Counted from the stretch's first letter, positions 6,735 to 64,000 are shown. The stretch is DNA of 64,000 bases from Chloroflexota bacterium (GCA_038040345.1 JBBPIQ010000002.1:189747-253746); one strand, 5' to 3'. Notes: a model not told the origin generated them from the sequence alone. Numbers and translations: made by a program.

Positions 6735-8152
6735 AGCTGCAGCTCAAGGTCACGCCGAAACAGATCGCGGCGAACTACATCCTTCAACTTAGCTCGCTCG
6801 AGCTGCAGGACGTCATTAACCAGGAGCTCCAGGAAAATCCTGCCCTCGATCTCGAGGAGGTGCAGGCCTGCCCGCTCTGCGGTCAGCCCCTCGCCGGCCG
6901 GGTCTGCCTGAACTGCTTCGGCACCGGCAAAGGCCCGTACAAGGGCAGCGAGGACCTCGAGACCGAGCCCCTCGAGGGCACCAGCCTCATGCAGCGCGAC
7001 GAGGAGGAGGATGAGCTCGACCCGATCGTTCGCGCGGAGGCCGAGCAGACCCTCGCCGAGTACCTCTCGTGGAACACACGCGTGCTGCTGCCGAAGCGGC
7101 TGTACCCCGTCGCCGAGTACATCATCGGGAACCTGAACGACTTCGGGTACCTCGAGCTGCCGCTCGAGGAGATCGCGAAGACGCTCAAGGTGTCCGTCGC
7201 CGACGCTACCGAGGTTCTCAAGACCATCCAGGGCATCGAGCCGTGGGGCATCGGCGCTCGCGACACCCGCGAGTGCCTTCTTATCCAGATCGACCACCTG
7301 TCCGAGATCGGCGAGGAGGTGCCCGCGCACGTGCGGTCGATCATTGCCGACCATCTCCGCGAGCTGGGGGAGCACAAGTTCGGCGACATTGCGCAGGCCC
7401 TTCGCGTCTCGCGCGAGGAAGTCCAGCAGGGCTGGGACTGGGTGAAACAGAGCCTCAACCCGTACCCGGCGCACGCGTTCGCCGCTGGCCCTGACGGCAC
7501 CAGCATCGGCGGCCGCCAGGTCGCACTCCGCCCTGACGTGATCATCGTCCGTAACGAGAAGGGCGACTTCGAGGTCGAGGTCATCGAATCGCGGCGGTTC
7601 TCGCTCCGGGTGAACCCGGTCTACCGCCAGCTCGTCGGACAGCTCCAGGCCGCGCGGAGCGCGGGCGCGGCGGCACCGACGATGACCGACGACGAACGCC
7701 AGCACATCCGGCAGTACGTCACGCGCGCGAAGTTCTTCATCGACAACATCAACCAGCGGCGCCAGACGATCGGCCGCATTACCGACGTCATCGTCGAGTG
7801 CCAGAGGGATTTCCTGGACAAGGGCGTTCAGTCGCTCCGGCCGCTCACGCGCGCGGAGGTGGGGGAGCGCATCGGGATGCACGAGTCGACGGTGAGCCGC
7901 GCCACGGCCGGCAAGTTCGTGCTCCTGCCCGCCGGCGAGGTGATCCCGTTCTCCACCTTCTTCACGGCTTCGCTCGGCGTGAAGGACGTGATCAAGAACA
8001 TCATCGAGGCCGAGGACCGCTCGCGGCCCTACTCGGACCAAGAGATCGTCGAAAAGCTTCGCGAGGACAACGGCATCCGCCTCGCGCGCCGCACCGTCGC
8101 GAAATACCGCGAAGAGCTACAGATCCTCCCTGCGAGACTGAGGAAGCGCTAG
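6713..8152 (+). CDS. rpoN: RNA polymerase sigma-54 factor
   Basis: GTG start with upstream AAGG; Gln/Leu-rich region I; HTH ESTVSRA; RpoN box ARRTVAKYREEL at C-terminus. Confidence 0.85.
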   Translation: MDLRLLPQLQLKVTPKQIAANYILQLSSLELQDVINQELQENPALDLEEVQACPLCGQPLAGRVCLNCFGTGKGPYKGSEDLETEPLEGTSLMQRDEEEDELDPIVRAEAEQTLAEYLSWNTRVLLPKRLYPVAEYIIGNLNDFGYLELPLEEIAKTLKVSVADATEVLKTIQGIEPWGIGARDTRECLLIQIDHLSEIGEEVPAHVRSIIADHLRELGEHKFGDIAQALRVSREEVQQGWDWVKQSLNPYPAHAFAAGPDGTSIGGRQVALRPDVIIVRNEKGDFEVEVIESRRFSLRVNPVYRQLVGQLQAARSAGAAAPTMTDDERQHIRQYVTRAKFFIDNINQRRQTIGRITDVIVECQRDFLDKGVQSLRPLTRAEVGERIGMHESTVSRATAGKFVLLPAGEVIPFSTFFTASLGVKDVIKNIIEAEDRSRPYSDQEIVEKLREDNGIRLARRTVAKYREELQILPARLRKR

Positions 8153-23997: not shown

Positions 23998-25566
23998 TTG
24001 ACGACTCGCCCGACGGTCCGAGCCGCGAACGGTCTGGTCGCGAGCGGACATCACCTCGCGACGTCCGCTGGTCTCGCCGCTCTCCGCGAAGGTGGCAACG
24101 CCGCCGATGCCGCTGTCGCCGCGGCGGCGGTCTGCGCCGTCGTTATGCCGCATCGCACGTCGATCGGCGGCGACATGTTCGCGCTCTTCTACGACGCGCG
24201 GTCGCGCGAGGTCACCGCGTACAACGGTTCAGGCGCCGCTCCGCATGCTCTCGATCCCGAGAGCTTCGGCAAGGCTTTCCCGGCGCAGGGCGCCACCATC
24301 GCGACCGTCCCCGGCCTCATCGCGGGGCTCGCGGATCTTGTCGCCGACCACGGCCGTCTCGGCCTCGATCGAGCGCTCGCTCCGGCGATCGGCTATGCGG
24401 AGAACGGTTTTCCCGTGAGCGACGTCCTTGCCGAGGTGATCGCCGACGAGGGAGACCGGATCGCGCGCGACGAGCAGGCCGCACAGATCTTCGGTCCGCG
24501 CGGGCGCTGGCCCGGTGCGGGGGAGATGCTCCAGCAGCGGGACCTCGCGGCAGCACTGCAAGCCGTCGCCCGCGACGGCGCGGACGCGTTCTATCGCGGC
24601 GATCTCGGTGAGCGCTTCGCGACGGCGATCGCGTCGATCGGCGGTGCGATCGACCGCGCCGACCTGGCCGCGCATCGCACCGATCGCCCCGAGCCCCTTT
24701 CCATCAGCTATCGCGGTCTGCGAGTCTTCGGTCAGCCGCCGGTCTCGCAGGGACACATCCTTCTCGAGGAGCTCGCGATCGTCGAAGGCATCGACGTCCG
24801 TGCGCTCGAGTGGGGGAGTGCCGACCTCATACATCTCATGGTGGAGACCAAGAAGCTCGCGTTCGCCGATCGCGACGCGCACGCGGGCGATCCCGCACGC
24901 GTCGACTTCGATGCTCGCCGCTTGCTCGACGCCGAGTTCGTCGCGAGCCGCCGCCGCGCCGTGAACGCCAAAGCGAGCGAGCGCAGCGAGGCGGGCTCGC
25001 TCATGACGCCGGCCGACACCACATACCTCGCGATCGTGGACCGCGACGGCAACGCGGTCTCGCTCATCGAGAGCGTGTTCAGCGCGTTCGGCGCGGCCAC
25101 GGTGGTACCGGGTACCGGGATCCTCCTCAACAACCGACTCTCGGGCTTCTCGCTCGATCCAAGTTCGCCGAATGCGGTCGCGCCGGGCAAACGCCCCGTG
25201 CACACGTTGAACACGGTGATCGCGCTCGAAGGGTCGATGCCGCGATTCGTTTTCGGCACGCCCGGACGCCACGCCCAGGTGCAGACGAACTTCCAGCTCG
25301 CGGTGGGACTCATCGACTTCGGCATGGACGTGCAGCAGGCGATCGAAGAACCCCGTTGGTATCACGACTCGGGGCGCACACTGAAGATGGAGCGCCGTTA
25401 TCCCGAGGCCGTCCGTCGCGCGATGGCGGCGAAGGGGCACGAGGTCGCGGTGCTGGGAGATTGGGACGAGATCACCGGGGGCGCACAAGCGATCGCGATC
25501 GACCCGAACGGATCGTTCGCCGGTGGCGCGGATCCGCGCCGCGAGGGTCAGGCCGCTGGGTATTAA
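23998..25566 (+). CDS. ggt: gamma-glutamyltransferase family protein
   Basis: TTG start; TSIGGDMFALFYD...TTYLAIVDRDGNAVS; no obvious signal peptide. Confidence 0.85.
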   Translation: MTTRPTVRAANGLVASGHHLATSAGLAALREGGNAADAAVAAAAVCAVVMPHRTSIGGDMFALFYDARSREVTAYNGSGAAPHALDPESFGKAFPAQGATIATVPGLIAGLADLVADHGRLGLDRALAPAIGYAENGFPVSDVLAEVIADEGDRIARDEQAAQIFGPRGRWPGAGEMLQQRDLAAALQAVARDGADAFYRGDLGERFATAIASIGGAIDRADLAAHRTDRPEPLSISYRGLRVFGQPPVSQGHILLEELAIVEGIDVRALEWGSADLIHLMVETKKLAFADRDAHAGDPARVDFDARRLLDAEFVASRRRAVNAKASERSEAGSLMTPADTTYLAIVDRDGNAVSLIESVFSAFGAATVVPGTGILLNNRLSGFSLDPSSPNAVAPGKRPVHTLNTVIALEGSMPRFVFGTPGRHAQVQTNFQLAVGLIDFGMDVQQAIEEPRWYHDSGRTLKMERRYPEAVRRAMAAKGHEVAVLGDWDEITGGAQAIAIDPNGSFAGGADPRREGQAAGY

Positions 25567-27679
25567 CCGCGGCGTAGTTGCCGCGGTCGCGATCTTGTGC
25601 GCCTCGGTGCTGAGCGCCTGCGAGCCTGGACCTCCGCCGGCCGAGCCCATCGCGCGCCAGTACGCCGCCGCATGGCAGAAGTCCGATTACCAGTCGATGT
25701 GGGACCTGTTGACCGACGACGCGAAGCAGCAGGTCACGACCGCGGGCTTCATCGACCGGCTGCCGCGCATCGCGGAGGAGATGACGCTCCAATCGCTCGA
25801 CCCAAGGCCCGGTGTGGCGACGCACCCGGCGCTCCCGAACGGGTCGCCGGACCCGCGAAAGGCGAGCGTGCCGCTCGACGTCATCTTCCATACGCAGCGC
25901 GTCGGTGATTTCGCTCGCGCAATCACGCTCCAGCTCGTGATGGTCGGCGAGAAGGACAAAGCGGTCTGGCGGATCGCGTGGACCCCCGAAGCGATCCTTC
26001 CGCATCTCACCGCGGGCCGTCTGGTGCGCATGACGCGCCTGCCCACCTCGCGAGGCCGGATCGTCGCTCGCGACGGCACCGAGCTCGCCACATTCATCGA
26101 AGCGGGCGTGGTCGGCGTGATCACCGGACAGATCCGCTCAGAGGCGGGGCTGTTGTCGTCGCTGTCATCCGTGCTCGCGATGACGCCCGACCAGATCAAG
26201 GCGAAGTACACGCAGTCCTGGGTGAAGCCCGATCTCTTCGTGCCGATCAAGACCGTGCCCACGACGCAGCTCGACGCCCTTCGTACGCGGCTCTCTCTGA
26301 TCGAGGGAGTTCAGGTGCAGGCGACGCGCGTGCGCAGCTACCCGACCGGACTTGCGTCGCAGACCCTCGGCTACCTCGCTGAGGCGAGCGAGGACGAGGC
26401 AAAGGCGAAGACGGCGCGCGGCGTCGAGGCCGGTGACCTCATCGGCAAGAAGGACACCGGGCTCGAGGCGACCCTCGACGACGAGCTCGGCGGGAGTTAC
26501 GGATTCCGTCTCGGCATCGTCGAGTCTGATGAGCGACCCGTCGAAACGCTCTCCGAGACCGCGCCGGTGCCCGGACGCGACGTCGTCCTCTCGCTCGATC
26601 CCAAGCTGCAGCGCGCGGCCGAGAACGCGCTCGGGAATCAGAAGGGCGCGATCGTCGCCGAGGATCCGTGGTCGGGCGAGATCCTCGCTCTAGCGAGTCG
26701 GCCGACGTTCGACTTGAACGCGCTCGTGTCGGGCGACGCCGCCGCGATCGCGCGCTATTCGTCGGATCCGAACCGGCCGTTCTTCAACCGCGCGACGTTC
26801 GGCCAATACCCGACCGGGTCGTCGTTCAAACCGATCACCTCGGCCGCCGCGCTCCGGAACGGCGTCTACAACTGGGGCGACAAGATCGACTGCCCGGCAC
26901 GCTGGACCGGCTACGGCGAGCAATGGGCGCAGCTCAACCACGAAACAAAGGCGCTCGGGCCGATCGACCTCCGCACCGCGCTCGCGCGCAGCTGCAACAC
27001 GTTCTTTTACGAGATCGGCAAACGCCTCAACGATCGCGATCCGAACATCCTGCCGAACACCGCGAAGAGCTTCGGGCTCGGGAAGGCCACGGACATCGAC
27101 TTCGTCTATGAGGCGGAAGGGATAGTTCCGAGCCCGGACTGGAAGAAGACGTACTTCACCAACCCCGCCGACCAGGTATGGAACCCGGGGGACGCGACGA
27201 ACCTCGCGATCGGGCAGGGGTTTCTGCTCGCGACGCCGCTGCAGATGGCGAACTACACGTCGACGCTCGCCAACGACGGCATCCTTTGGAAGCCGCGCCT
27301 CGTGATCGAGCTCCGCGACCGAGACGGCAAGACCGTCAAGACTTATCCGAAAACGCAGATGGGCTCGGCGCTCTCGATCCCGACGGACCTTTCGCTCATC
27401 CGCGACGGTATGCACGCTGTGACGAACGATCCCGACGGCACGGTGTCCTTCGTTTTCCAGAACTACTCGCCCACCACGGCGGGAAAGAGCGGTACGGCCG
27501 AGTCGCCGACTCCCGGCAAGGTCGACGCGTGGTTCATCGGGTGGGCCTCGTTCGAGCAGCCTTCGATCGCGATAGCCGCGGTCCTCGACGAATACACGGA
27601 GAGACCGGGCGTGTTCGGCTCGGTCGACTCGGCCATCGCCGTGAAGGCCGTATTGACCGCGAAGTTCGCCACGCCGTAG
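25523..27679 (+). CDS. penicillin-binding protein (transpeptidase) lipoprotein
   Basis: lipobox LSAC, then SSFKP, SCN and KSGTAE motifs; start may lie downstream of 25523. Confidence 0.75.
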   Translation: MARIRAARVRPLGINRGVVAAVAILCASVLSACEPGPPPAEPIARQYAAAWQKSDYQSMWDLLTDDAKQQVTTAGFIDRLPRIAEEMTLQSLDPRPGVATHPALPNGSPDPRKASVPLDVIFHTQRVGDFARAITLQLVMVGEKDKAVWRIAWTPEAILPHLTAGRLVRMTRLPTSRGRIVARDGTELATFIEAGVVGVITGQIRSEAGLLSSLSSVLAMTPDQIKAKYTQSWVKPDLFVPIKTVPTTQLDALRTRLSLIEGVQVQATRVRSYPTGLASQTLGYLAEASEDEAKAKTARGVEAGDLIGKKDTGLEATLDDELGGSYGFRLGIVESDERPVETLSETAPVPGRDVVLSLDPKLQRAAENALGNQKGAIVAEDPWSGEILALASRPTFDLNALVSGDAAAIARYSSDPNRPFFNRATFGQYPTGSSFKPITSAAALRNGVYNWGDKIDCPARWTGYGEQWAQLNHETKALGPIDLRTALARSCNTFFYEIGKRLNDRDPNILPNTAKSFGLGKATDIDFVYEAEGIVPSPDWKKTYFTNPADQVWNPGDATNLAIGQGFLLATPLQMANYTSTLANDGILWKPRLVIELRDRDGKTVKTYPKTQMGSALSIPTDLSLIRDGMHAVTNDPDGTVSFVFQNYSPTTAGKSGTAESPTPGKVDAWFIGWASFEQPSIAIAAVLDEYTERPGVFGSVDSAIAVKAVLTAKFATP

Positions 27680-49486: not shown

Positions 49487-50452
49487 ATGACAACGAACAT
49501 TACCCACGCGCGTCCTCGAGTTCGCGGTCCAAAATTACTGCTGACAGCTGCGGTCGCGGTCATGCTCGCGATGAGCATGCTCACGTTGGGAGGACCCACC
49601 GCGAACGCGGCGGCTCCAGGACCATCCCTTGGAATCGCTGGCAACTTCGCGATCCTCAGCGCAGCCGACGGGGGTTTGGGAGCGGTGACCTGTGTTGGCC
49701 CCGCCACGATCATCGGAAACCTGGGCTCCTCTGGCGTCCCGGCCTCGATCACTCCAGGCACGTGCACGATTACGGGGTCGCAGACCGCGCCGGTCTCGGC
49801 TGGAGTTGTAGCGGCCTTTGACAAGGCGTATGCGGCGCTTGGGCTCGTGCCGTGCACCACGACCATCCTTACTGCGGCCTACACGACCACGACGCTCTCG
49901 CTCGGGTCCGGTGTCACCTGTTTCCCGAACGGGCTGACGTTCACAGACAGCACGTTGATCCTCACCGGGAGCGGGCCCTGGCTCATCGAGGTCGGGACTC
50001 TGGCCACCGGCAACAGCGGCGCTCTCACGGGCACCAATCTCCATATGGTCCTGCCCGCTGGCGCGAACCCGTGTGACGTGACGTGGTGGGTCCGCGCGGG
50101 TGCGTCCATGACCACTTCGAACGCCACCGGCACGCAGTTCTTCGGCACGGTTCTCGCCGGGGCGGCAATCACCGTGATCGGGACGACCGTTGGAACCTTC
50201 AACGGGCGGGCTCTCGCCAAAGCCGCGGTGTCGATCACCGGCGGCACCTTCACCGGCTGCACAGGCGGAAGCCTTGGCGGCGGAGGCAAGAACAAGGACA
50301 AACACGAGGCCTGCAACCAGGGCGTAGGCAACGGGCCCGAGGACTGTGATCCGGGCAACTCGAACCAGGGCGACGACGACCGTTCGAACGACGAGAACGG
50401 CGGGACGCCTGGGCACCCTGGCCGCCAAGGCGGCAACGACAAGGACGACTAG
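49487..50452 (+). CDS. secreted DUF3494 (ice-binding-like beta-helix) family protein
   Basis: signal peptide; LGIAGNFAILSAADGGLGAVTCVGPATIIGNLGSSG motif; Thr/Gly-rich repeats; acidic Gly/Asp/Asn-rich tail. Confidence 0.65.
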   Translation: MTTNITHARPRVRGPKLLLTAAVAVMLAMSMLTLGGPTANAAAPGPSLGIAGNFAILSAADGGLGAVTCVGPATIIGNLGSSGVPASITPGTCTITGSQTAPVSAGVVAAFDKAYAALGLVPCTTTILTAAYTTTTLSLGSGVTCFPNGLTFTDSTLILTGSGPWLIEVGTLATGNSGALTGTNLHMVLPAGANPCDVTWWVRAGASMTTSNATGTQFFGTVLAGAAITVIGTTVGTFNGRALAKAAVSITGGTFTGCTGGSLGGGGKNKDKHEACNQGVGNGPEDCDPGNSNQGDDDRSNDENGGTPGHPGRQGGNDKDD

Positions 50453-53504: not shown

Positions 53505-54125
53505 ATGACCGAATCGCGTATTAGCCGACGTGGGATCTTGAAGACCGCTGGGGCGCTAGGCGTTATCGGAGCGCTTTCGTCATCGGCGACCGCGCTCGCG
53601 GATGACGGCGAAGGGGGAGAAGGGGCAAGATTCCGCTGGGACATCATCAGCATCGACTTTACGACCGGCACGGTGTCGGCGGGGGGCAGCGCGTCCGCCC
53701 GCGCAAACCTCGACACGGGGATCATCACGCTCACCGGCTCGGGGACCTTCCGACCTGGCCAGCGCAAAGCGGTGACTGGCGGGGGGACCTGGTCGACGAC
53801 CGGGACCGCGGGTGTCGGCCACGGCACCTACAGGGTGACTGAGCTCGTCGAGTGGCACCTGGCCCCGGGGACGTTCCCGCTGACGATCGACGCCATCGGC
53901 GACAAAGCCGACGCTCGCGCAGGACTGGCGGTCCTTCGCGTCCGGTACTCAGACCAGAGCGAGGGGATCCTCGTGGTGAGCTGCACGATCGCTGGGACCC
54001 CGTCTTCGGTGTTTGAGGGGATCAGGACGTCCAGGGGCTTTGTCTATTACTGGAACGGCGACATCGCGGCAGACAACGTGAACCACACGCTCTTCCACTT
54101 CCTGTCAAAGGCGGAAAAGGACTAA
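53505..54125 (+). CDS. Tat-signal secreted hypothetical protein
   Basis: twin-arginine motif SRRGILKTAGALGVIGAL...A; Thr/Gly-rich. Confidence 0.5.
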   Translation: MTESRISRRGILKTAGALGVIGALSSSATALADDGEGGEGARFRWDIISIDFTTGTVSAGGSASARANLDTGIITLTGSGTFRPGQRKAVTGGGTWSTTGTAGVGHGTYRVTELVEWHLAPGTFPLTIDAIGDKADARAGLAVLRVRYSDQSEGILVVSCTIAGTPSSVFEGIRTSRGFVYYWNGDIAADNVNHTLFHFLSKAEKD

Positions 54126-54214: not shown

Positions 54215-54793
54215 TCAAGCGCTCGAACCAAAACCAGAGGAGTCGCTCGTGTCCGGCGGCACTGGCGCTCCGTCCTTCGTTCCCGTGGAGACGAAGTTCG
54301 CCTTCAGCTCGCGCAACGGGTCAGGGCCGTTCGAGTGCCTAGCGCTCGCACCGAGCGCTGTGCGGGGTACTGCGGGCAGCGGCAACTTCGATACCAACGT
54401 CATGTATGTCACCGGGACGATCACCTCGGCTGAGGTCAACGGGCAGACCGCGGTCTTGAAGGGGTGCGGCGGTCTTGAAATTGATCGTTGTGCGTGCAGG
54501 GAGCGGCAGGAGTAGGCGCGCTTCTGGTCGATGATGATCGGCGCGTTCAGGTGCTCGATCCGCTCGACGTCGGGCTGCCCGTAGTGCGGCATGAAGCCTT
54601 GGACGAAGAAGGTGAACGTCTCGTTGAGCTGCCGCTGCGCCTCGGCGGCGATCGTGTCGAACACGAGCGAGGACTTCCCCGAGCCGGAGATGCCGGTGAA
54701 GACTGTGATCTTCTGCTTCGGGATGGACAGCGAGACGTTCTTGAGGTTTTTCTCGCGGGCGCCGTGGACCTCGATGAACGGATGGTCGGTCAT
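54215..54793 (-). pseudogene. UvrA-like ABC ATPase, N-terminal fragment only
   Basis: first about 93 codons match the UvrA N-terminus (GAREKNLKNVSLSIP, Walker A GISGSGKSSL, FDTIAAEAQRQ, IIIDQK); the remainder of the ORF is unrelated. Confidence 0.5.
54441..54480 (+). other. tRNA-Ser(UGA)-derived 5' fragment
   Basis: exact 16-nt match TGCGGCGGTCTTGAAA to the D-stem/anticodon arm of the tRNA at 56651; partial repeat CCGCGGTCTTGAA just upstream. Confidence 0.4.
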
Positions 54794-56650: not shown

Positions 56651-56737
56651 GGAGGGGTGGCAGAGCGGTCGAATGCGGCGGTCTTGAAAACCGCTACGTC
56701 CTTAGGGGCGTCGTGGGTTCGAATCCCACTCCCTCCG
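56651..56737 (+). tRNA. tRNA-Ser (anticodon UGA)
   Basis: acceptor GGAGGGG/TCCCTCC, anticodon stem GCGGT/ACCGC with loop CTTGAAA, long variable arm, T-loop GTGGGTTCGAATCCCAC, discriminator G; CCA not encoded. Confidence 0.8.
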
Positions 56738-56744
56738 CAGTGTG

Positions 56745-57020
56745 CAACTGACGATGTCAACTGACATCTGTGGTCTTGCTCTTTTTGGCGCAGCCGCTCG
56801 TACGGAGTCTGACCGCCCAGGGCGCCGAGGGGCCGGTCGAAAGTGTAGAAGTCCTCCCACTCTTGAAGTTTGGTCATGAACAGCTCGCTCTGGTCGACGA
56901 CGACGCCATTGAGCTCATCCCATCGCCGGGCATCCAGGAGCCTCTGTCGCCGGAGGGTTGAGGGAGCGAGGAGTTGGGCAGCACGTTCGCGTTGGCCTTG
57001 CCGCTCGCCGGATCGGACGG
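56745..57020 (-). mobile_element. DDE transposase/integrase C-terminal remnant
   Basis: minus-strand frame reads ...LQEWEDFYTFDRPLGALGGQTPYERL, resembling the rve-core YNxxRPHxxLGGxTP motif; no N-terminal catalytic region present. Confidence 0.4.
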
Positions 57021-57022
57021 GG

Positions 57023-57763
57023 TCAGTTCTTCTCGGCGTCGGAAGCGCTGACGAATCGGTAGCCGGCGCCCGGGACCGTCTCGATGTACCGGGGCTTGTG
57101 CCAGTCGTCCTGGAGCTTCGCCCGCAGCGCCCGCACGTGGCGGTCCACGACGTTGCTCTCGATCACGAAGTCGGTGCCCCAGAGCGCGTCGAGGATCTGC
57201 TCGCGCGTGAGGACGCTCCCGGCGTTGGCGGCGAGAAGGTACAGCAGTGCCTGCTCGAGCGAGGTGAGGTGCAGCTCGTGTTCGCCAGCGAGCACCTTTC
57301 GGTTGAGAACGTCGATCTCGAGGTCACCAATGCGCAGGCGCGGGACCAGCTCTACGGCGCTGCCGTGGGTCCGGCGGATCACCGCGTGGGCGCGGGCGAC
57401 CAGATCGTCCGGCACGAAGGGGATGCCGATGTAATCGTCCGCGCCGCGCTCGAAGGCGTCGAGCTTCCCGCGGAGGTCGCTGCGCCGGGTGAGGGCGATG
57501 ACCGCTGTCGACCCCTGGGCGCGCGCCTCGTTGATGAGCTGGATCCCCCGACCGGCCTCGATGTCTATGTTGACCAGAAGGAGATGGGGCTTCCACTCCA
57601 CGATCGCGCCCTTGGCCTGATTCACCGTTTCCGCGATCCGGCGGGCGTATCGCCCATGCCGCAGGGTGAGGTCGACGGTGTTCGCGAGCGCTTTGTCGCC
57701 GATGACCAAGAGCACGCGGACCGCGCGGTCGGATTCTCTTGCGGCCGGCTCGGCCTCTGCCAT
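57023..57763 (-). CDS. OmpR-family response regulator (orphan)
   Basis: receiver domain followed by winged helix (ETVPGAGYRFV); no histidine kinase gene adjacent. Confidence 0.75.
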   Translation of the reverse strand: MAEAEPAARESDRAVRVLLVIGDKALANTVDLTLRHGRYARRIAETVNQAKGAIVEWKPHLLLVNIDIEAGRGIQLINEARAQGSTAVIALTRRSDLRGKLDAFERGADDYIGIPFVPDDLVARAHAVIRRTHGSAVELVPRLRIGDLEIDVLNRKVLAGEHELHLTSLEQALLYLLAANAGSVLTREQILDALWGTDFVIESNVVDRHVRALRAKLQDDWHKPRYIETVPGAGYRFVSASDAEKN

Positions 57764-57772
57764 CGGCCCATT

Positions 57773-58342
57773 CTAGGCTTGGCTGTTCTCGTAAATACGC
57801 ACGCCGAGCTCGCGGCTCAGCGGAAGTGGCCAGCCGGAGGGACCGCGCCCAACCGATACCGGATCGTCATAGCTACCGAGGAGCACCAAGAGACCCGCGT
57901 GCGTCCCGACAGGCGCTCCGATCCAGACCAGACCTACCGCGTGGCTCGTCGTTCCGTCGCCGGCCGGCTCTTGGCTGAGGGTGACCGGAGGAGCGCCGCC
58001 GGTATTGATACCAGATTCGGTCACGGCGAGCCGGAAGTGCGAAGGCGGACTTTGCGAGCCCTCGGCGATCCTCGGCCCGTAGTGTTTCGGCACCGCCCAG
58101 CTCGAGACCAACGGTTCGAGAGCCGCGCGTTGTGCCGCGTCGGCCTCGGTCGACTCTCCCGCGTGGAGCGCTCTGAGCATCGCGACGTCGCGTCGGTCGT
58201 CGATGCTCGTCAATAGAGGTATGGCGGGTTCGATCCCGTGTGGCGACCCCGCCACGATTCGCGCGGCCGCGCCGTCCACATCTGCGACGCGCAGCCGGAA
58301 CTCTTCGAGCACGAGGACGCGGATGGGGTCAGCGATCGACAC
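57773..58342 (-). CDS. hypothetical protein upstream of the response regulator
   Basis: 189-aa ORF with normal composition, 10-nt gap to the regulator gene. Confidence 0.35.
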   Translation of the reverse strand: MSIADPIRVLVLEEFRLRVADVDGAAARIVAGSPHGIEPAIPLLTSIDDRRDVAMLRALHAGESTEADAAQRAALEPLVSSWAVPKHYGPRIAEGSQSPPSHFRLAVTESGINTGGAPPVTLSQEPAGDGTTSHAVGLVWIGAPVGTHAGLLVLLGSYDDPVSVGRGPSGWPLPLSRELGVRIYENSQA

Positions 58343-58463
58343 TGTCTTGAACCCTGACGCCTGGGGGTGTCCTTGTCATGACCTTGCCGTCATCTGCGCC
58401 GCATCTGCCGCATGACTGTTTGGTCATGACTCGAGCAAGCAACCAGCCCAAGATGCAGTCGAG

Positions 58464-59441
58464 GTGTCCGACATGAAGAACTCAAAGGCACTCGCTGCGA
58501 CGGTCGTCATCGCGCTCATCATTGCGATCGGCGCGATGGCAGGCACCGCTGCGAATGCGGCAACTTCCACTGTTCCCCTGGGAACGGCTGCCAGCTTCTC
58601 GGTCCTCGGCGGTCTGGCAGTGACCAACACAGGCCCGACCACCACCGACAAAGACGTAGGGGTTTGGCCCGGTACCTCGGTGGGCGCGTGGCCGCCCGGA
58701 ATAGCCGGCGGGGCAATCCACGCGGGTGACGCCGTCGCGCAGCAGGCCCAGAGCGACCTGACCACCGCGTATAACAACGCCGCAGGACGAACGCCGTTCA
58801 CGGTTGTGGGTGGCGATCTCGTCGGGCAGACCCTCGTTGGTGGCGTCTATAGAGGCGGCACGCTCGGTCTCACAGGAGTGCTGACCCTCGATGGGCAGAA
58901 CGATCCAGCGTCCGTCTGGATCTTCCAGACGCCGGCAACCCTCATCACCGGGTCGTCGAGTCTTGTGAGCTTCATCAACGGCGCGAGCCCGTGCAACGTC
59001 TTCTGGCAGGTCGGGAGCTCAGCGACTCTGGGAACGGGCTCCACCTTCGTCGGCACGATCATGGCTCTAACCAAGATCACGGTCACTACCGGCGTGACCG
59101 TCTATGGCAGAGCGCTGGCCCGGAATGATGCCGTGACATTGGACAACGACCGATTCCTAACGTCAGTGTGCGCATCTGCGCTAAACATTCCGCCGACGCG
59201 GCCACCGTTCACGGTTGCACCTTCGGCAACTCCGATAGCCGCGCCCACAGCGACCCCGATCGGTGCGGCCACTCCAACCGCAGCGCCGACAGTCGCTCCA
59301 ACCGCAGCGCCGACAGTTCATCTAACAGTCCTGCCATCAACGAGCACGGCGGAGTCGTGGGGTCCGCTCGCGCTGCTTGGCCTGGCCCTGGCCAGCTTCG
59401 GGGCGCTTCTGCTGCTTCGTAGACCACTTCGGAACTTCTAG
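58464..59441 (+). CDS. secreted DUF3494 (ice-binding-like) protein with Pro/Thr/Ala linker and C-terminal hydrophobic-basic tail
   Basis: signal peptide; LGTAASFSVLGGLAVTNTGPTT; PTAAPTVAPTAAPT linker; C-terminus LPSTSTAE + hydrophobic helix + RRPLRNF. Confidence 0.65.
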   Translation: MSDMKNSKALAATVVIALIIAIGAMAGTAANAATSTVPLGTAASFSVLGGLAVTNTGPTTTDKDVGVWPGTSVGAWPPGIAGGAIHAGDAVAQQAQSDLTTAYNNAAGRTPFTVVGGDLVGQTLVGGVYRGGTLGLTGVLTLDGQNDPASVWIFQTPATLITGSSSLVSFINGASPCNVFWQVGSSATLGTGSTFVGTIMALTKITVTTGVTVYGRALARNDAVTLDNDRFLTSVCASALNIPPTRPPFTVAPSATPIAAPTATPIGAATPTAAPTVAPTAAPTVHLTVLPSTSTAESWGPLALLGLALASFGALLLLRRPLRNF

Positions 59442-59763
59442 CGAGATCCTCGCGCAAGACCGCCAAGCCAGGTGAAGATCCAGCTCAGTGCACTTGGCTT
59501 GGCGGCGGCGTGTGCGAGCAACTTGTTCGCGGATTCTCAGCTCCCGGACGCAAGTCGATCCATTGTTCAGGATCCTTCTCATAGTTGCGCTCGTCGTCAT
59601 AGTTCCGCGTGTTGGTCGACGAGGCGATCCGCCTGCTACTACAGCAATTCCTGTAGCAGAGACGAGCGACGGCCGCGCACGATCGGGGACGACACCGGAC
59701 GGGCTGCGCGATTTTCTCGAATGAATCGACGTTAGCGGACGATCATGGACGGGCCGGGGCGCA

Positions 59764-59818
59764 CTTGAAAACCGCTGAGGGTGCAAGCTCTCCGTGGGTT
59801 CGAATCCCACCCCCTCCG
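59764..59818 (+). other. partial tRNA-Ser-like sequence (anticodon loop to 3' end), att-like
   Basis: CTTGAAAACCGCT ... GTGGGTTCGAATCCCAC CCCCTCC G shares anticodon loop, T-arm and acceptor 3' strand with tRNA-Ser but has a different variable arm and no D-arm. Confidence 0.5.
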
Positions 59819-59833
59819 CAGATCGTTAGGGAA

Positions 59834-63725: not shown

Positions 63726-64000
63726 TCAGGACATCGAGGACACCTGTCTCACGACATTGTGGACAGGTGTCCGCGCGCCGAAATAGCGGCGGCTCGGATC
63801 GAGGGTGAGCTCGCGTAGCAGCTGACCGTCGTCGCGGACGATCCGGACGTTCGCGCCGGCGATGAGCAGACGGATCCGCTCACCCTTGTGCGCGCGTCCG
63901 ACGTAGATGTGCCGCAGCTGGCTCAGGTAGCGCAGCGTGACTCGACCGCAGCTATCCACCTTGTCATGGCGGACCCGGAAGTCGGTGACCGTCTCCGGCA
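63726..64000 (-). mobile_element. transposase/integrase gene, C-terminal part (continues beyond window)
   Basis: stop 13 nt downstream of the tRNA-Ser(GCU) 3' end on the opposite strand; C-terminus ...GERIRLLIAGANVRIVRDDGQLLRELTLDPSRRY; family assignment tentative. Confidence 0.45.

What the first reader, a model, noticed from the sequence alone, without database searches (positions are those of the whole stretch)
58464..59441. Second DUF3494 paralogue with a C-terminal sorting-signal-like tail
After the DUF3494 domain comes a Pro/Thr/Ala-rich linker and a tail LPSTSTAE + hydrophobic helix + RRPLRNF, which resembles a sortase or exosortase-type sorting signal. The gene ends with a 14-bp inverted-repeat hairpin (59452-59498) and lies inside the tRNA-Ser-bracketed segment.
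Basis: partly seen in the sequence, partly recalled or inferred. Interest (0 to 1): 0.55.

Follow-up and report, generated by a model that had tools for sequence, protein, structure and literature searches.

The report
Surface-anchored ice-binding-like protein, LPSTST tail
This gene from a soil Chloroflexota bacterium encodes a secreted ice-binding-type beta-helix protein whose C-terminal tail is a lineage-specific variant (LPSTST instead of LPXTG) of the signal that Gram-positive bacteria use to fasten proteins to their cell wall; the enzyme that would read it was not found.

Summary
ORF 58473-59441 (+) has a Sec signal peptide, a DUF3494/ice-binding beta-helix (Pfam E=1.5e-53; 43% identical to the solved ice-binding protein 6EIO), a 48-residue Pro/Ala/Thr linker and the tail LPSTST-AES-(20 hydrophobic)-RRPLRNF. 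A conserved 15-bp hairpin follows the stop codon.

The tail looks like a portable sorting signal. Among the best 120 homologues, 86 of 98 distinct tails read LPSTST. A profile of the tail alone finds 59 protein clusters among 1.84 billion, always at the C-terminus. These include at least five unrelated N-terminal families. Named sources are all Candidatus Limnocylindria or Chloroflexota MAGs. Position 5 is S, rarely N or G (LPSTGT, LPATGT), so the motif derives from LPXTG. It scores at the cut-off of TIGR01167. No dedicated model or paper was found.

No sortase lies in the window or in about 370 kb of related loci, and whole genomes could not be scanned, so the enzyme is inferred.

Extra finding: the gene, an orphan response regulator and a 189-aa unknown sit in a 3.1-kb stretch between tRNA-Ser(UGA) and a partial copy of its 3' end.

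Verdict: a new variant of a known kind, of moderate interest.

The parts
58473..59441 (+). Gene for the 322-aa DUF3494 / ice-binding-like surface protein.
   Evidence: ORF. It is 100% identical to NCBI protein P0001, 'ice-binding family protein [Chloroflexota bacterium]'. A GAGG lies at 58461-58464, 8 nt before the ATG (sequence).
58473..58559 (+). Sec-type signal peptide, MKNSKALAATVVIALIIAIGAMAGTAANA | ATST.
   Evidence: Read from the sequence: basic N-region, hydrophobic core and an A-N-A site. The AF2 model shows helix 4-23 followed by a low-confidence junction. The segment is conserved in homologues.
58602..59153 (+). DUF3494 / Ice_binding beta-helix domain with its flanking alpha-helix (IBP-1 fold).
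   Evidence: Pfam PF11999 E=1.5e-53. AF2 pLDDT is above 90 over about residues 30-235, with helix 87-104. Foldseek best match is 6EIO: 43% identity, rmsd 0.9 A, target TM-score 0.87. phmmer against 6EIO gives E=7.1e-45.
59187..59330 (+). Pro/Ala/Thr-rich disordered linker, probably the wall-spanning stalk. It contains a 24-nt tandem duplication at 59272-59319.
   Evidence: Composition P12, A12, T11 of 48 residues. pLDDT is below 50. The duplication is repeat D4.
59331..59348 (+). LPSTST motif, the LPXTG-equivalent recognition site.
   Evidence: L and P are invariant and S, T, S, T are each at least 90% conserved in 50 tails. LPSTST occurs in 86 of 98 unique DUF3494 tails and in 39 of 45 representative tails. 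Variants with G at position 5 are P0127 and P0168.
59358..59417 (+). Hydrophobic membrane-spanning segment WGPLALLGLALASFGALLLL.
   Evidence: Mean Kyte-Doolittle hydropathy 1.98. AF2 helix 298-315. The median hydrophobic run in the tail family is 20 residues.
59418..59438 (+). Basic C-terminal cluster RRPLRNF.
   Evidence: Read from the sequence. In the family, a median of 7 residues follow the helix, with 4 R/K/H among them.
59460..59505 (+). Conserved GC-rich hairpin 18 nt after the stop codon. It is a likely transcript end or stabiliser and has no T-tract.
   Evidence: The RNAalifold consensus over five orthologous loci shows compensatory changes in the core stem, such as A-U to G-C and C-G to A-U.
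57773..58342 (-). Divergently transcribed 189-aa protein of unknown function. It is a conserved neighbour of the DUF3494 gene.
   Evidence: It is 85% identical to the 190-aa neighbour in L001. The same position is occupied in L001-L003 and L028-L031. No Pfam, NCBIfam or PDB hit.
57023..57763 (-). OmpR-family response regulator, co-oriented with the 189-aa gene. Its histidine kinase partner is missing here.
   Evidence: Trans_reg_C E=3.8e-26 and Response_reg E=4.5e-9. In related loci the order is histidine kinase, response regulator, 190-aa gene.
56651..56738 (+). Intact tRNA-Ser(UGA), the left boundary of the 3.1-kb stretch that holds the module.
   Evidence: ARAGORN. Rfam tRNA model, 57.4 bits.
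59750..59821 (+). Partial copy of tRNA-Ser(UGA): anticodon arm, T arm and 3' acceptor strand. This is the right boundary of the stretch.
   Evidence: Direct repeats D1 (29 nt, 97%) and D10 share the same 3081-bp spacing. Alignment. Only a weak tRNA-like score, 23 bits, E=0.25. ARAGORN does not call it.

Best explanation
The gene encodes a cell-surface protein. Steps 1 and 4 below are inferred; steps 2 and 3 are shown.

1. A Sec signal peptide exports the protein (inferred from the sequence).
2. A DUF3494 beta-helix of the ice-binding-protein fold is displayed on a roughly 48-residue Pro/Ala/Thr stalk (fold shown by HMM and by structure prediction; ice binding itself was not tested).
3. The C-terminal tail is a tripartite sorting signal of the LPXTG/sortase type, in a form specific to Candidatus Limnocylindria. 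Its extended consensus is (VAGVQx)LPSTST, followed by a few polar residues, about 20 hydrophobic residues and RRxxR. Conservation and portability across unrelated families are shown.
4. By analogy with LPXTG signals, the helix and basic cluster would hold the protein in the membrane. A sortase-like cysteine transpeptidase would cleave after the Thr of LPST and join it to a peptidoglycan precursor. The leaving-group residue would then be Ser instead of Gly. The cleavage, the enzyme and the acceptor are all inferred, not shown.

The gene is probably controlled by the divergently transcribed module of the 189-aa protein and the OmpR-type regulator (inferred from conserved synteny). Its transcript probably ends at, or is stabilised by, the conserved hairpin.
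For: Domain and fold.

Tail architecture.

Conservation. L and P are invariant and S, T, S, T are each at least 90% conserved. The linker in front of the motif is not conserved.

Portability. The tail-only profile finds 59 clusters in 1.84e9 representatives, always C-terminal. The carriers include several families with no Pfam domain:
- a 'GNNGxVKIHE...KVFWVEC' domain family;
- an 'AWVxPTLTAxCAPD' family;
- an 'SLVSYTAPSxTF' family;
- low-complexity proteins, small proteins and a 733-aa protein.

Relation to LPXTG. TIGR01167 is the best sorting-domain model and the only one at or above its cut-off: 13.6-20.8 bits on nine of the eleven tails scanned against a cut-off of 15.9, with no hit on P0081 and 15.9 for this protein. 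Two cluster representatives carry LPSTGT and LPATGT in an otherwise identical context.

Precedent. Natural sortases can accept Ser at P1'; S. pneumoniae SrtA cleaves LPATS (PMC8361268).

Peptidoglycan. The window encodes a class B penicillin-binding protein at 25523-27679, so peptidoglycan cross-linking machinery is encoded.

Lineage restriction. All five true genome hits are Limnocylindria or Chloroflexota MAGs (the sixth, L010, is a false positive).
Against: No sortase was found in the 64-kb window or in about 370 kb of related loci. Three methods were used: a catalytic-motif regex, phmmer with S. aureus SrtA, and an HMM built from 120 class F sortases. None of the roughly 25 loci that carry an LPSTST gene has a neighbouring gene with PF04203. 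This is weak evidence, because housekeeping sortases are usually unlinked to their substrates and whole genomes were not scanned.

The canonical Gly is missing. Pfam Gram_pos_anchor does not reach its cut-off on any carrier.

The conservation upstream (VAGVQx) and inside the helix (PL..LG....G) is more extended than in classical LPXTG signals. That could point to a different recognition machinery. This protein itself lacks the VAGVQ extension; it has HLTV instead.
Confidence: 0.65

Rival explanations
1. The tail is only an uncleaved C-terminal membrane anchor. In this reading the LPSTST and VAGVQ conservation serves something else, such as an O-glycosylation site or contact with an S-layer or wall polymer, and no transpeptidation occurs.
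For: No sortase was found in any sequence examined. The Ser/Thr-rich motif sits at the end of a Pro/Thr/Ala stalk of the kind that is often glycosylated (the link to glycosylation is general knowledge). The conserved residues inside the helix fit a structural role in the membrane.
Against: Invariant L-P and near-invariant T at position 4 across unrelated proteins is the pattern of an enzyme recognition site. The occasional Gly at position 5 and the TIGR01167 matches tie the motif to LPXTG. A plain anchor needs no conserved polar hexapeptide at a fixed distance from the helix; the median spacer is 2 residues.
Confidence: 0.15
2. The tail is read by a dedicated processing enzyme that is not a sortase, for example an exosortase/archaeosortase-like, rhombosortase-like or so far undescribed membrane protease. 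It would then define a separate sorting system that only resembles LPXTG.
For: Conservation extends upstream of the motif (VAGVQx) and into the helix (PL..LG....G) in unrelated carriers, as in signals read by intramembrane sorting enzymes. Weak sub-threshold hits of the helix and basic part to MYXO-CTERM and GVDTG_CTERM were seen. No sortase was seen.
Against: Among sorting-domain models only TIGR01167 reaches its cut-off for the DUF3494 carriers. Elsewhere only the srtB_target model, also a sortase-type signal, passes its cut-off (P0170). The motif has no PEP, PGF or GG signature. The MYXO-CTERM and GVDTG_CTERM hits cover only the generic helix-plus-basic part and stay below their cut-offs. 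No candidate enzyme is conserved next to any carrier.
Confidence: 0.12
3. The resemblance to a sorting signal is a coincidence of a hydrophobic C-terminus in a single protein.
For: The window holds no other protein with this tail.
Against: The tail is conserved in about 109 of 120 homologues and occurs on at least five unrelated families, with profile E-values down to 1.6e-16 against 1.84e9 proteins.
Confidence: 0.01

Closest known systems
LPXTG cell-wall sorting signal (TIGR01167 / PF00746), read by sortases
   Same: It has the tripartite layout: a short polar motif beginning L-P-x-T, about 20 hydrophobic residues, and a basic cluster at the extreme C-terminus. There is an N-terminal signal peptide and a Pro-rich stalk in front of the motif. 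It is portable between unrelated surface proteins. It scores at or above the TIGR01167 cut-off in many carriers.
   Different: Position 5 is Ser (91 of 96 DUF3494 tails; Asn in the other 5), with Gly only in 2 of 45 tail-profile representatives. Position 6 is a conserved Thr. Most carriers add a conserved VAGVQx in front of the motif. Pfam PF00746 is below its cut-off. LPXTS is not among the variants usually searched for, which are LPXTG, NPXTG, SPXTG, PPXTG, LPXTA and LAXTG (PMC13251363). The cognate sortase was not identified.
Nostoc sp. HG1 ice-binding protein nIBP (DUF3494 + PEP-CTERM; Raymond et al. 2021, PMC7783341)
   Same: It is a DUF3494 ice-binding-type domain followed by a tripartite C-terminal sorting signal that would keep the protein on the cell surface.
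   Different: nIBP carries a PEP-CTERM (exosortase) signal in a diderm cyanobacterium. The protein here carries an LPXTG-type signal in a Chloroflexota MAG. [quoted passage not shown] My searches found no open-access paper that pairs DUF3494 with LPXTG.
[quoted passage not shown]
   Same: It is the closest solved structure: 43% identity, rmsd 0.9 A over 201 columns and phmmer E=7.1e-45. Both have the same IBP-1 beta-helix.
   Different: The solved 6EIO chain (237 residues) aligns only with the beta-helix domain; the linker and tail here have no counterpart in it. The protein here has a 48-residue stalk and a membrane/wall anchor. Ice-binding activity was not tested here, and the homologues come from soil metagenomes.
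Class F (and class E) sortases of Actinomycetota
   Same: These are the sortase classes of high-GC monoderm bacteria and the most likely kind of enzyme to read this signal. That is an inference, and that they also occur in Chloroflexota is my recollection of NCBI annotations. Real class F sortases were easily retrieved.
   Different: Every named hit was from Actinomycetota. None was tied to Limnocylindria, and none lies near an LPSTST gene. The physiological substrates of class F sortases are still unknown (PMC13251363).

Membership tests
DUF3494 / Ice_binding (PF11999) | Match to the Pfam model above its gathering score | tested here: met
   182 bits against a cut-off of 28.7, E=1.5e-53, model positions 1-206 of 208.
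DUF3494 / Ice_binding (PF11999) | IBP-1 fold: right-handed beta-helix with a long alpha-helix alongside | tested here: met
   AF2 pLDDT above 90 across the domain, with helix 87-104. 31 solved ice-binding proteins match at E<=1e-3.
DUF3494 / Ice_binding (PF11999) | Ice-binding activity (recrystallisation inhibition, thermal hysteresis) | not testable with these tools
   The NCBIfam equivalog IBP_CFB scores 73.8 bits against a cut-off of 400. The function is therefore not assignable by that rule, and an experiment is needed.
LPXTG cell-wall anchor (TIGR01167 / PF00746) | Pentapeptide L-P-x-T-G | tested here: not met
   The motif is LPSTS(T). Gly at position 5 occurs in only 2 of 45 representative tails.
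LPXTG cell-wall anchor (TIGR01167 / PF00746) | Hydrophobic segment followed by a basic cluster at the extreme C-terminus | tested here: met
   20 hydrophobic residues followed by RRPLRNF. Family medians are 20 hydrophobic residues and 4 basic residues.
LPXTG cell-wall anchor (TIGR01167 / PF00746) | HMM score at or above the curated cut-off | tested here: inconclusive
   TIGR01167 scores 15.9 bits, exactly the 15.9 cut-off, for this protein. Nine of ten other tails scanned range from 13.6 to 20.8 bits and one (P0081) gave no hit. PF00746 gives no hit for this protein and stays below its cut-off in others.
LPXTG cell-wall anchor (TIGR01167 / PF00746) | N-terminal signal peptide | tested here: met
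   Read from the sequence. Full-length carriers from other families also start with signal peptides.
LPXTG cell-wall anchor (TIGR01167 / PF00746) | A sortase encoded in the same genome | not testable with these tools
   There is none in the 64-kb window or in about 370 kb of related loci.
LPXTG cell-wall anchor (TIGR01167 / PF00746) | The same tail on several unrelated proteins of the lineage (portability) | tested here: met
PEP-CTERM / exosortase and other named CTERM sorting domains | Signature motif (PEP, PGF, GG and so on) and an NCBIfam model hit above its cut-off | tested here: not met
   For the window protein, no hit other than TIGR01167 appears even at E<=1. MYXO-CTERM and GVDTG_CTERM hits in other carriers are below their cut-offs and cover only the helix.
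Intrinsic (Rho-independent) terminator | GC-rich stem-loop directly followed by a T-run | tested here: not met
   The stem is present and conserved, but no T-run follows it. The consensus scan does not list it.
tRNA-integrated genomic islet | Direct repeat of the tRNA 3' end bounding the segment | tested here: met
   Repeats D1 and D10 share the same 3081-bp spacing. Alignment.
tRNA-integrated genomic islet | Integrase or recombinase gene inside the segment | tested here: not met
   Only a roughly 34-aa ORF fragment next to the tRNA (56775-56877) was seen, and it gives no Pfam match. Its transposase-like look is my recollection only.

The most novel reading that the evidence does not exclude
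The tail (VAGVQx)LPSTST + helix + RR would define a self-contained protein-sorting system specific to Candidatus Limnocylindria. Its processing enzyme would be either a new sortase subclass with obligate Ser/Thr at P1'/P2' and extended upstream recognition, or not a sortase at all. The system would display, among others, an ice-binding-type protein on the surface of abundant soil Chloroflexota.
Probability: 0.25. Interest if true: 0.6.

Novelty: new variant of a known kind. Interest (0 to 1): 0.45.

Why it matters
Sortase signals are used to predict the surface proteome and are exploited as protein-ligation tools. A natural, strictly conserved LPSTST signal would imply a sortase with a different leaving-group preference, which could be useful for orthogonal ligation.

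Motif-based substrate searches (LPXTG, LAXTG, LPXTA and so on) would miss the whole surface proteome of a widespread soil and freshwater class of Chloroflexota.

It would also be the first reported DUF3494 ice-binding-type protein tethered by an LPXTG-type signal. That bears on whether such proteins act at the cell surface rather than as secreted antifreezes.

None of this changes a major paradigm. JGI annotation already labels many of these proteins 'LPXTG-motif cell wall-anchored'.

Tried and rejected
1. Looking up the MAG's own contig around the gene: P0001 and P0097 are not on record.
2. Neighbourhood search for a sortase next to LPSTST genes in about 25 loci: none found.
3. Regex, SrtA phmmer and class F sortase HMM scans of the window and all loci: nothing found.
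4. A class F sortase query written from memory retrieved 120 real class F sortases. All named ones are from Actinomycetota, so no Limnocylindria seed was obtained. Cluster look-up added no taxonomy. One sortase context examined gave no link to the LPSTST lineage.
5. A search with the 'GNNG-KIHE' domain, meant to compare tails across phyla, returned only five fragments.
A narrower alignment gave six loci, one of them (L010) an out-of-frame false positive.
7. Literature searches found nothing for LPSTS + sortase, Limnocylindria + sortase, DUF3494 + LPXTG, or class F sortase + Chloroflexi. The SortPred paper has no held supplement.
8. The 189-aa neighbour was considered as the sorting enzyme and rejected. 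It has no Cys, no membrane segment and no family hit.
9. The TAT-signal protein 53505-54125 matched the regex but has no sortase features.
10. Pfam did not confirm the transposase-like ORF fragments next to the two tRNA-Ser genes.

Full report
**What is there**

The best start is ATG 58473, giving 322 aa. A GAGG lies 8 nt upstream (sequence), and an identical 322-aa NCBI protein, 'MAG: ice-binding family protein [Chloroflexota bacterium]', sits on a 374,644-bp contig.

The protein has five parts (coordinates):
- a Sec-type signal peptide, residues 1-29;
- a DUF3494/Ice_binding domain;
- a 48-residue linker made mostly of P, A and T;
- the hexapeptide LPSTST;
- three polar residues, a 20-residue hydrophobic segment and RRPLRNF.

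The domain assignment is firm. Pfam PF11999 gives E=1.5e-53. An AlphaFold2 model built on 60 homologues has pLDDT above 90 over the beta-helix, with the long helix 87-104 typical of the fold. The linker has pLDDT below 50, and there is a terminal helix at 298-315. Foldseek and phmmer both place the domain closest to EfcIBP (PDB 6EIO), an experimentally characterised bacterial ice-binding protein: 43% identity, rmsd 0.9 A and E=7.1e-45. The NCBIfam ice-binding equivalog is far below its cut-off, at 73.8 bits against 400. Ice binding is therefore plausible but not established.

**Is the tail a sorting signal?**

Of the 120 best homologues (55-87% identical), about 109 end in the same kind of tail. 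Among 98 distinct tails, 86 read LPSTST. The rest read LPATNT, LPATST, LPSSST, LPSTNT and similar, and none has Gly at position 5. In an alignment of 50 tails, L and P are invariant. S, T, S and T, a P-L pair at the start of the helix and one Gly inside it are each at least 90% conserved. The linker in front of the motif is not conserved.

I searched a profile built from the tail alone against 1.84 billion representative proteins. It found only 59 clusters at E<=1e-3 (best 1.6e-16), and the match was at the C-terminus in every case.

Many of these clusters are not DUF3494 proteins. The carriers include:
- a family with an N-terminal 'GNNGxVKIHE...PHVCxFxIxGFNFD...KVFWVEC' domain;
- a family beginning 'AWVxPTLTAxCAPD';
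- a 'SLVSYTAPSxTF' domain;
- low-complexity Ser/Thr/Gly-rich proteins;
- small proteins, and a 733-aa protein next to another carrier.

None of the eight carriers scanned has a Pfam domain. Full-length members start with signal peptides. This portability between unrelated secreted proteins is the usual operational criterion for a sorting signal.

The extended consensus is V-A-G-V-Q-x-L-P-S-T-S-T-[DGN]-[DE]-P. A median 2-residue spacer follows, then a 20-residue hydrophobic run and 7 final residues with 4 basic ones. The window protein has the core motif but not the VAGVQ extension.

**Which kind of signal?**

Against NCBIfam, the only sorting-domain hit of the window protein is TIGR01167 (LPXTG_anchor), at 15.9 bits, exactly its cut-off. 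Of ten other carriers scanned, nine score 13.6-20.8 bits and one (P0081) gave no TIGR01167 hit. MYXO-CTERM and GVDTG_CTERM hits stay below their cut-offs and cover only the helix. Pfam Gram_pos_anchor is sub-threshold.

Two cluster representatives carry LPSTGT and LPATGT in an otherwise typical tail. The motif is therefore an LPXTG derivative in which the leaving-group Gly has become Ser.

Sortases that accept Ser at this position exist. S. pneumoniae SrtA cleaves LPATS (PMC8361268). However, LPXTS is not among the variants normally searched for (PMC13251363). I found no dedicated NCBIfam model and no paper on the motif. JGI already names many of these proteins 'LPXTG-motif cell wall-anchored protein'.

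The closest published parallel for the architecture is the Nostoc ice-binding protein with a PEP-CTERM signal (PMC7783341).

**The missing enzyme**

The second test, a sortase in the genome, could not be run. The MAG's own contig is not in the look-up index. No sortase was found in the window or in about 370 kb of related loci. I used a catalytic-motif regex, phmmer with S. aureus SrtA (the query sequence was verified against PDB) and an HMM built from 120 real class F sortases. No neighbour of an LPSTST gene in about 25 loci carries PF04203.

This is weak negative evidence, because housekeeping sortases are normally unlinked to their substrates. The window does encode a class B penicillin-binding protein at 25523-27679, so a peptidoglycan acceptor is plausible.

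I therefore rate 'LPXTG-type signal processed by a sortase-like transpeptidase' at about 0.65. The rivals are an uncleaved anchor at about 0.15 and a non-sortase enzyme at about 0.12.

**Distribution**

All five genuine hits in the reference-genome collection are Candidatus Limnocylindria or Chloroflexota MAGs (L010 is a false positive). The 15 metagenome hits have JGI-style contig names; their habitats were not looked up. Limnocylindria is a class of Chloroflexota.

**Surroundings**

In seven related loci the order is conserved: histidine kinase, OmpR-type regulator and a 190-aa unknown on one strand, then the DUF3494-LPSTST gene and a YggT-family gene on the other. The window keeps only the regulator (57023-57763), the 189-aa gene (57773-58342, 85% identical to its counterpart in L001) and the DUF3494 gene. 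Nucleotide similarity to L001 and L028 stops at about 57002-57033 on the left and about 59470-59512 on the right.

This block lies between the intact tRNA-Ser(UGA) (56651-56738) and a roughly 70-nt partial copy of its 3' part (59750-59821). The copy has the same orientation and lies 3081 bp away. Its 3' end is 97% identical over 29 nt, and its variable arm differs. That is the signature of insertion at a tRNA gene, but no integrase is left.

**The hairpin**

The arms are 59460-59474 and 59491-59505, 15 nt with one mismatch. The fold has dG -41.8 kcal/mol and z=-3.75. The stem is conserved 18 nt after the stop codon in five orthologous loci. The loops vary, and there are compensatory changes in the core stem. 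No T-run follows, and the consensus terminator scan does not list it. It is probably a transcript end or a 3' stabiliser.

**The 'first paralogue'**

ORF 49487-50452 has no Pfam hit at E<=0.01. It shows 39% identity over 82 residues in BLASTP. It aligns with the DUF3494 profile over 210 columns (hhalign probability 97.4%, E=1.1e-11). It is a divergent family member with a signal peptide and an acidic Gly/Asn/Asp-rich end, without a membrane anchor.

**Verdict**

The tail is a real, portable, lineage-specific variant of the LPXTG sorting signal, attached here to an ice-binding-type domain. The reading enzyme remains unidentified. I class it as a new variant of a known kind, of moderate interest.

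Noticed in passing
window 56651-59821: A roughly 70-nt partial copy of the 3' part of tRNA-Ser(UGA), at 59750-59821, lies 3081 bp downstream of the intact gene in the same orientation. It brackets the regulator, 189-aa and DUF3494 module. Synteny with related genomes breaks inside this bracket, and the histidine kinase and YggT genes that flank the module elsewhere are missing. It looks like a decayed tRNA-integrated islet without an integrase.
   Followed up: partly
window 57023-58342 (-); L001 8185-9516; L028-L031: A 189/190-aa protein with no Pfam, NCBIfam or PDB match, no Cys and no membrane segment is always co-transcribed with an OmpR-type regulator. It is divergent from the DUF3494-LPSTST gene. 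The regulator's receiver domain matches Pfam only weakly (36.9 bits).
   Followed up: partly
window 49487-50452 (+): A divergent DUF3494-like protein that Pfam misses at E<=0.01 (hhalign probability 97.4% to the DUF3494 profile). It has a signal peptide, 8 Cys and an acidic Gly/Asn/Asp-rich C-terminus instead of an anchor.
   Followed up: partly
L006, L007, L009, L016, L039, L013/L014, L017, L020 (carrier genes): An undescribed secreted domain, 'GNNGxVKIHE..PHVCxFxIxGFNFD..KVFWVEC', has no Pfam match and always ends in the LPSTST tail. In L006, L007, L009 and L039 it sits after a divergent TetR-type gene (Pfam-confirmed only in L039); in L006, L007 and L009 a roughly 1100-aa protein with an adenylate-cyclase-like N-terminus follows, read from sequence only. 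Several members have long Thr/Gly/Ser repeats.
   Followed up: no
L013 ~7500-7730, L014 ~1850-2073, L020 ~1650-1866: Some carriers have a second, degenerate motif, AGVE[SNT]LP[GS]TSGGGMQ, about 20 residues upstream of the real VAGVQTLPSTST. Many carriers repeat 'AGVQ'/'GVQT' units in the stalk.
   Followed up: no
window 59272-59319: A 24-nt tandem duplication (92% identical) inside the linker encodes a repeated PTAAPTV unit. It suggests that stalk length varies by slippage.
   Followed up: no
window 56775-56877 (-) and 63726-63998 (-): Short ORF fragments abut the 3' ends of both tRNA-Ser genes. To my eye they resemble C-terminal pieces of DDE transposases or integrases, but Pfam gives no match.
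   Followed up: partly
window 54215-54793 (-): A 192-aa ORF begins like the N-terminus of a UvrA-type ABC ATPase (GISGSGKSSL) and then loses similarity. It may be a truncated or frameshifted gene. This was read from the sequence only.
   Followed up: no
window 53505-54125 (+): A 206-aa protein has a twin-arginine-type signal (SRRGILKTAGALG) and no family match.
   Followed up: no
L026 11175-12098: In one related genome a second Ice_binding gene (307 aa) directly follows the LPSTST-bearing copy. It did not show the tail in my scan.
   Followed up: no
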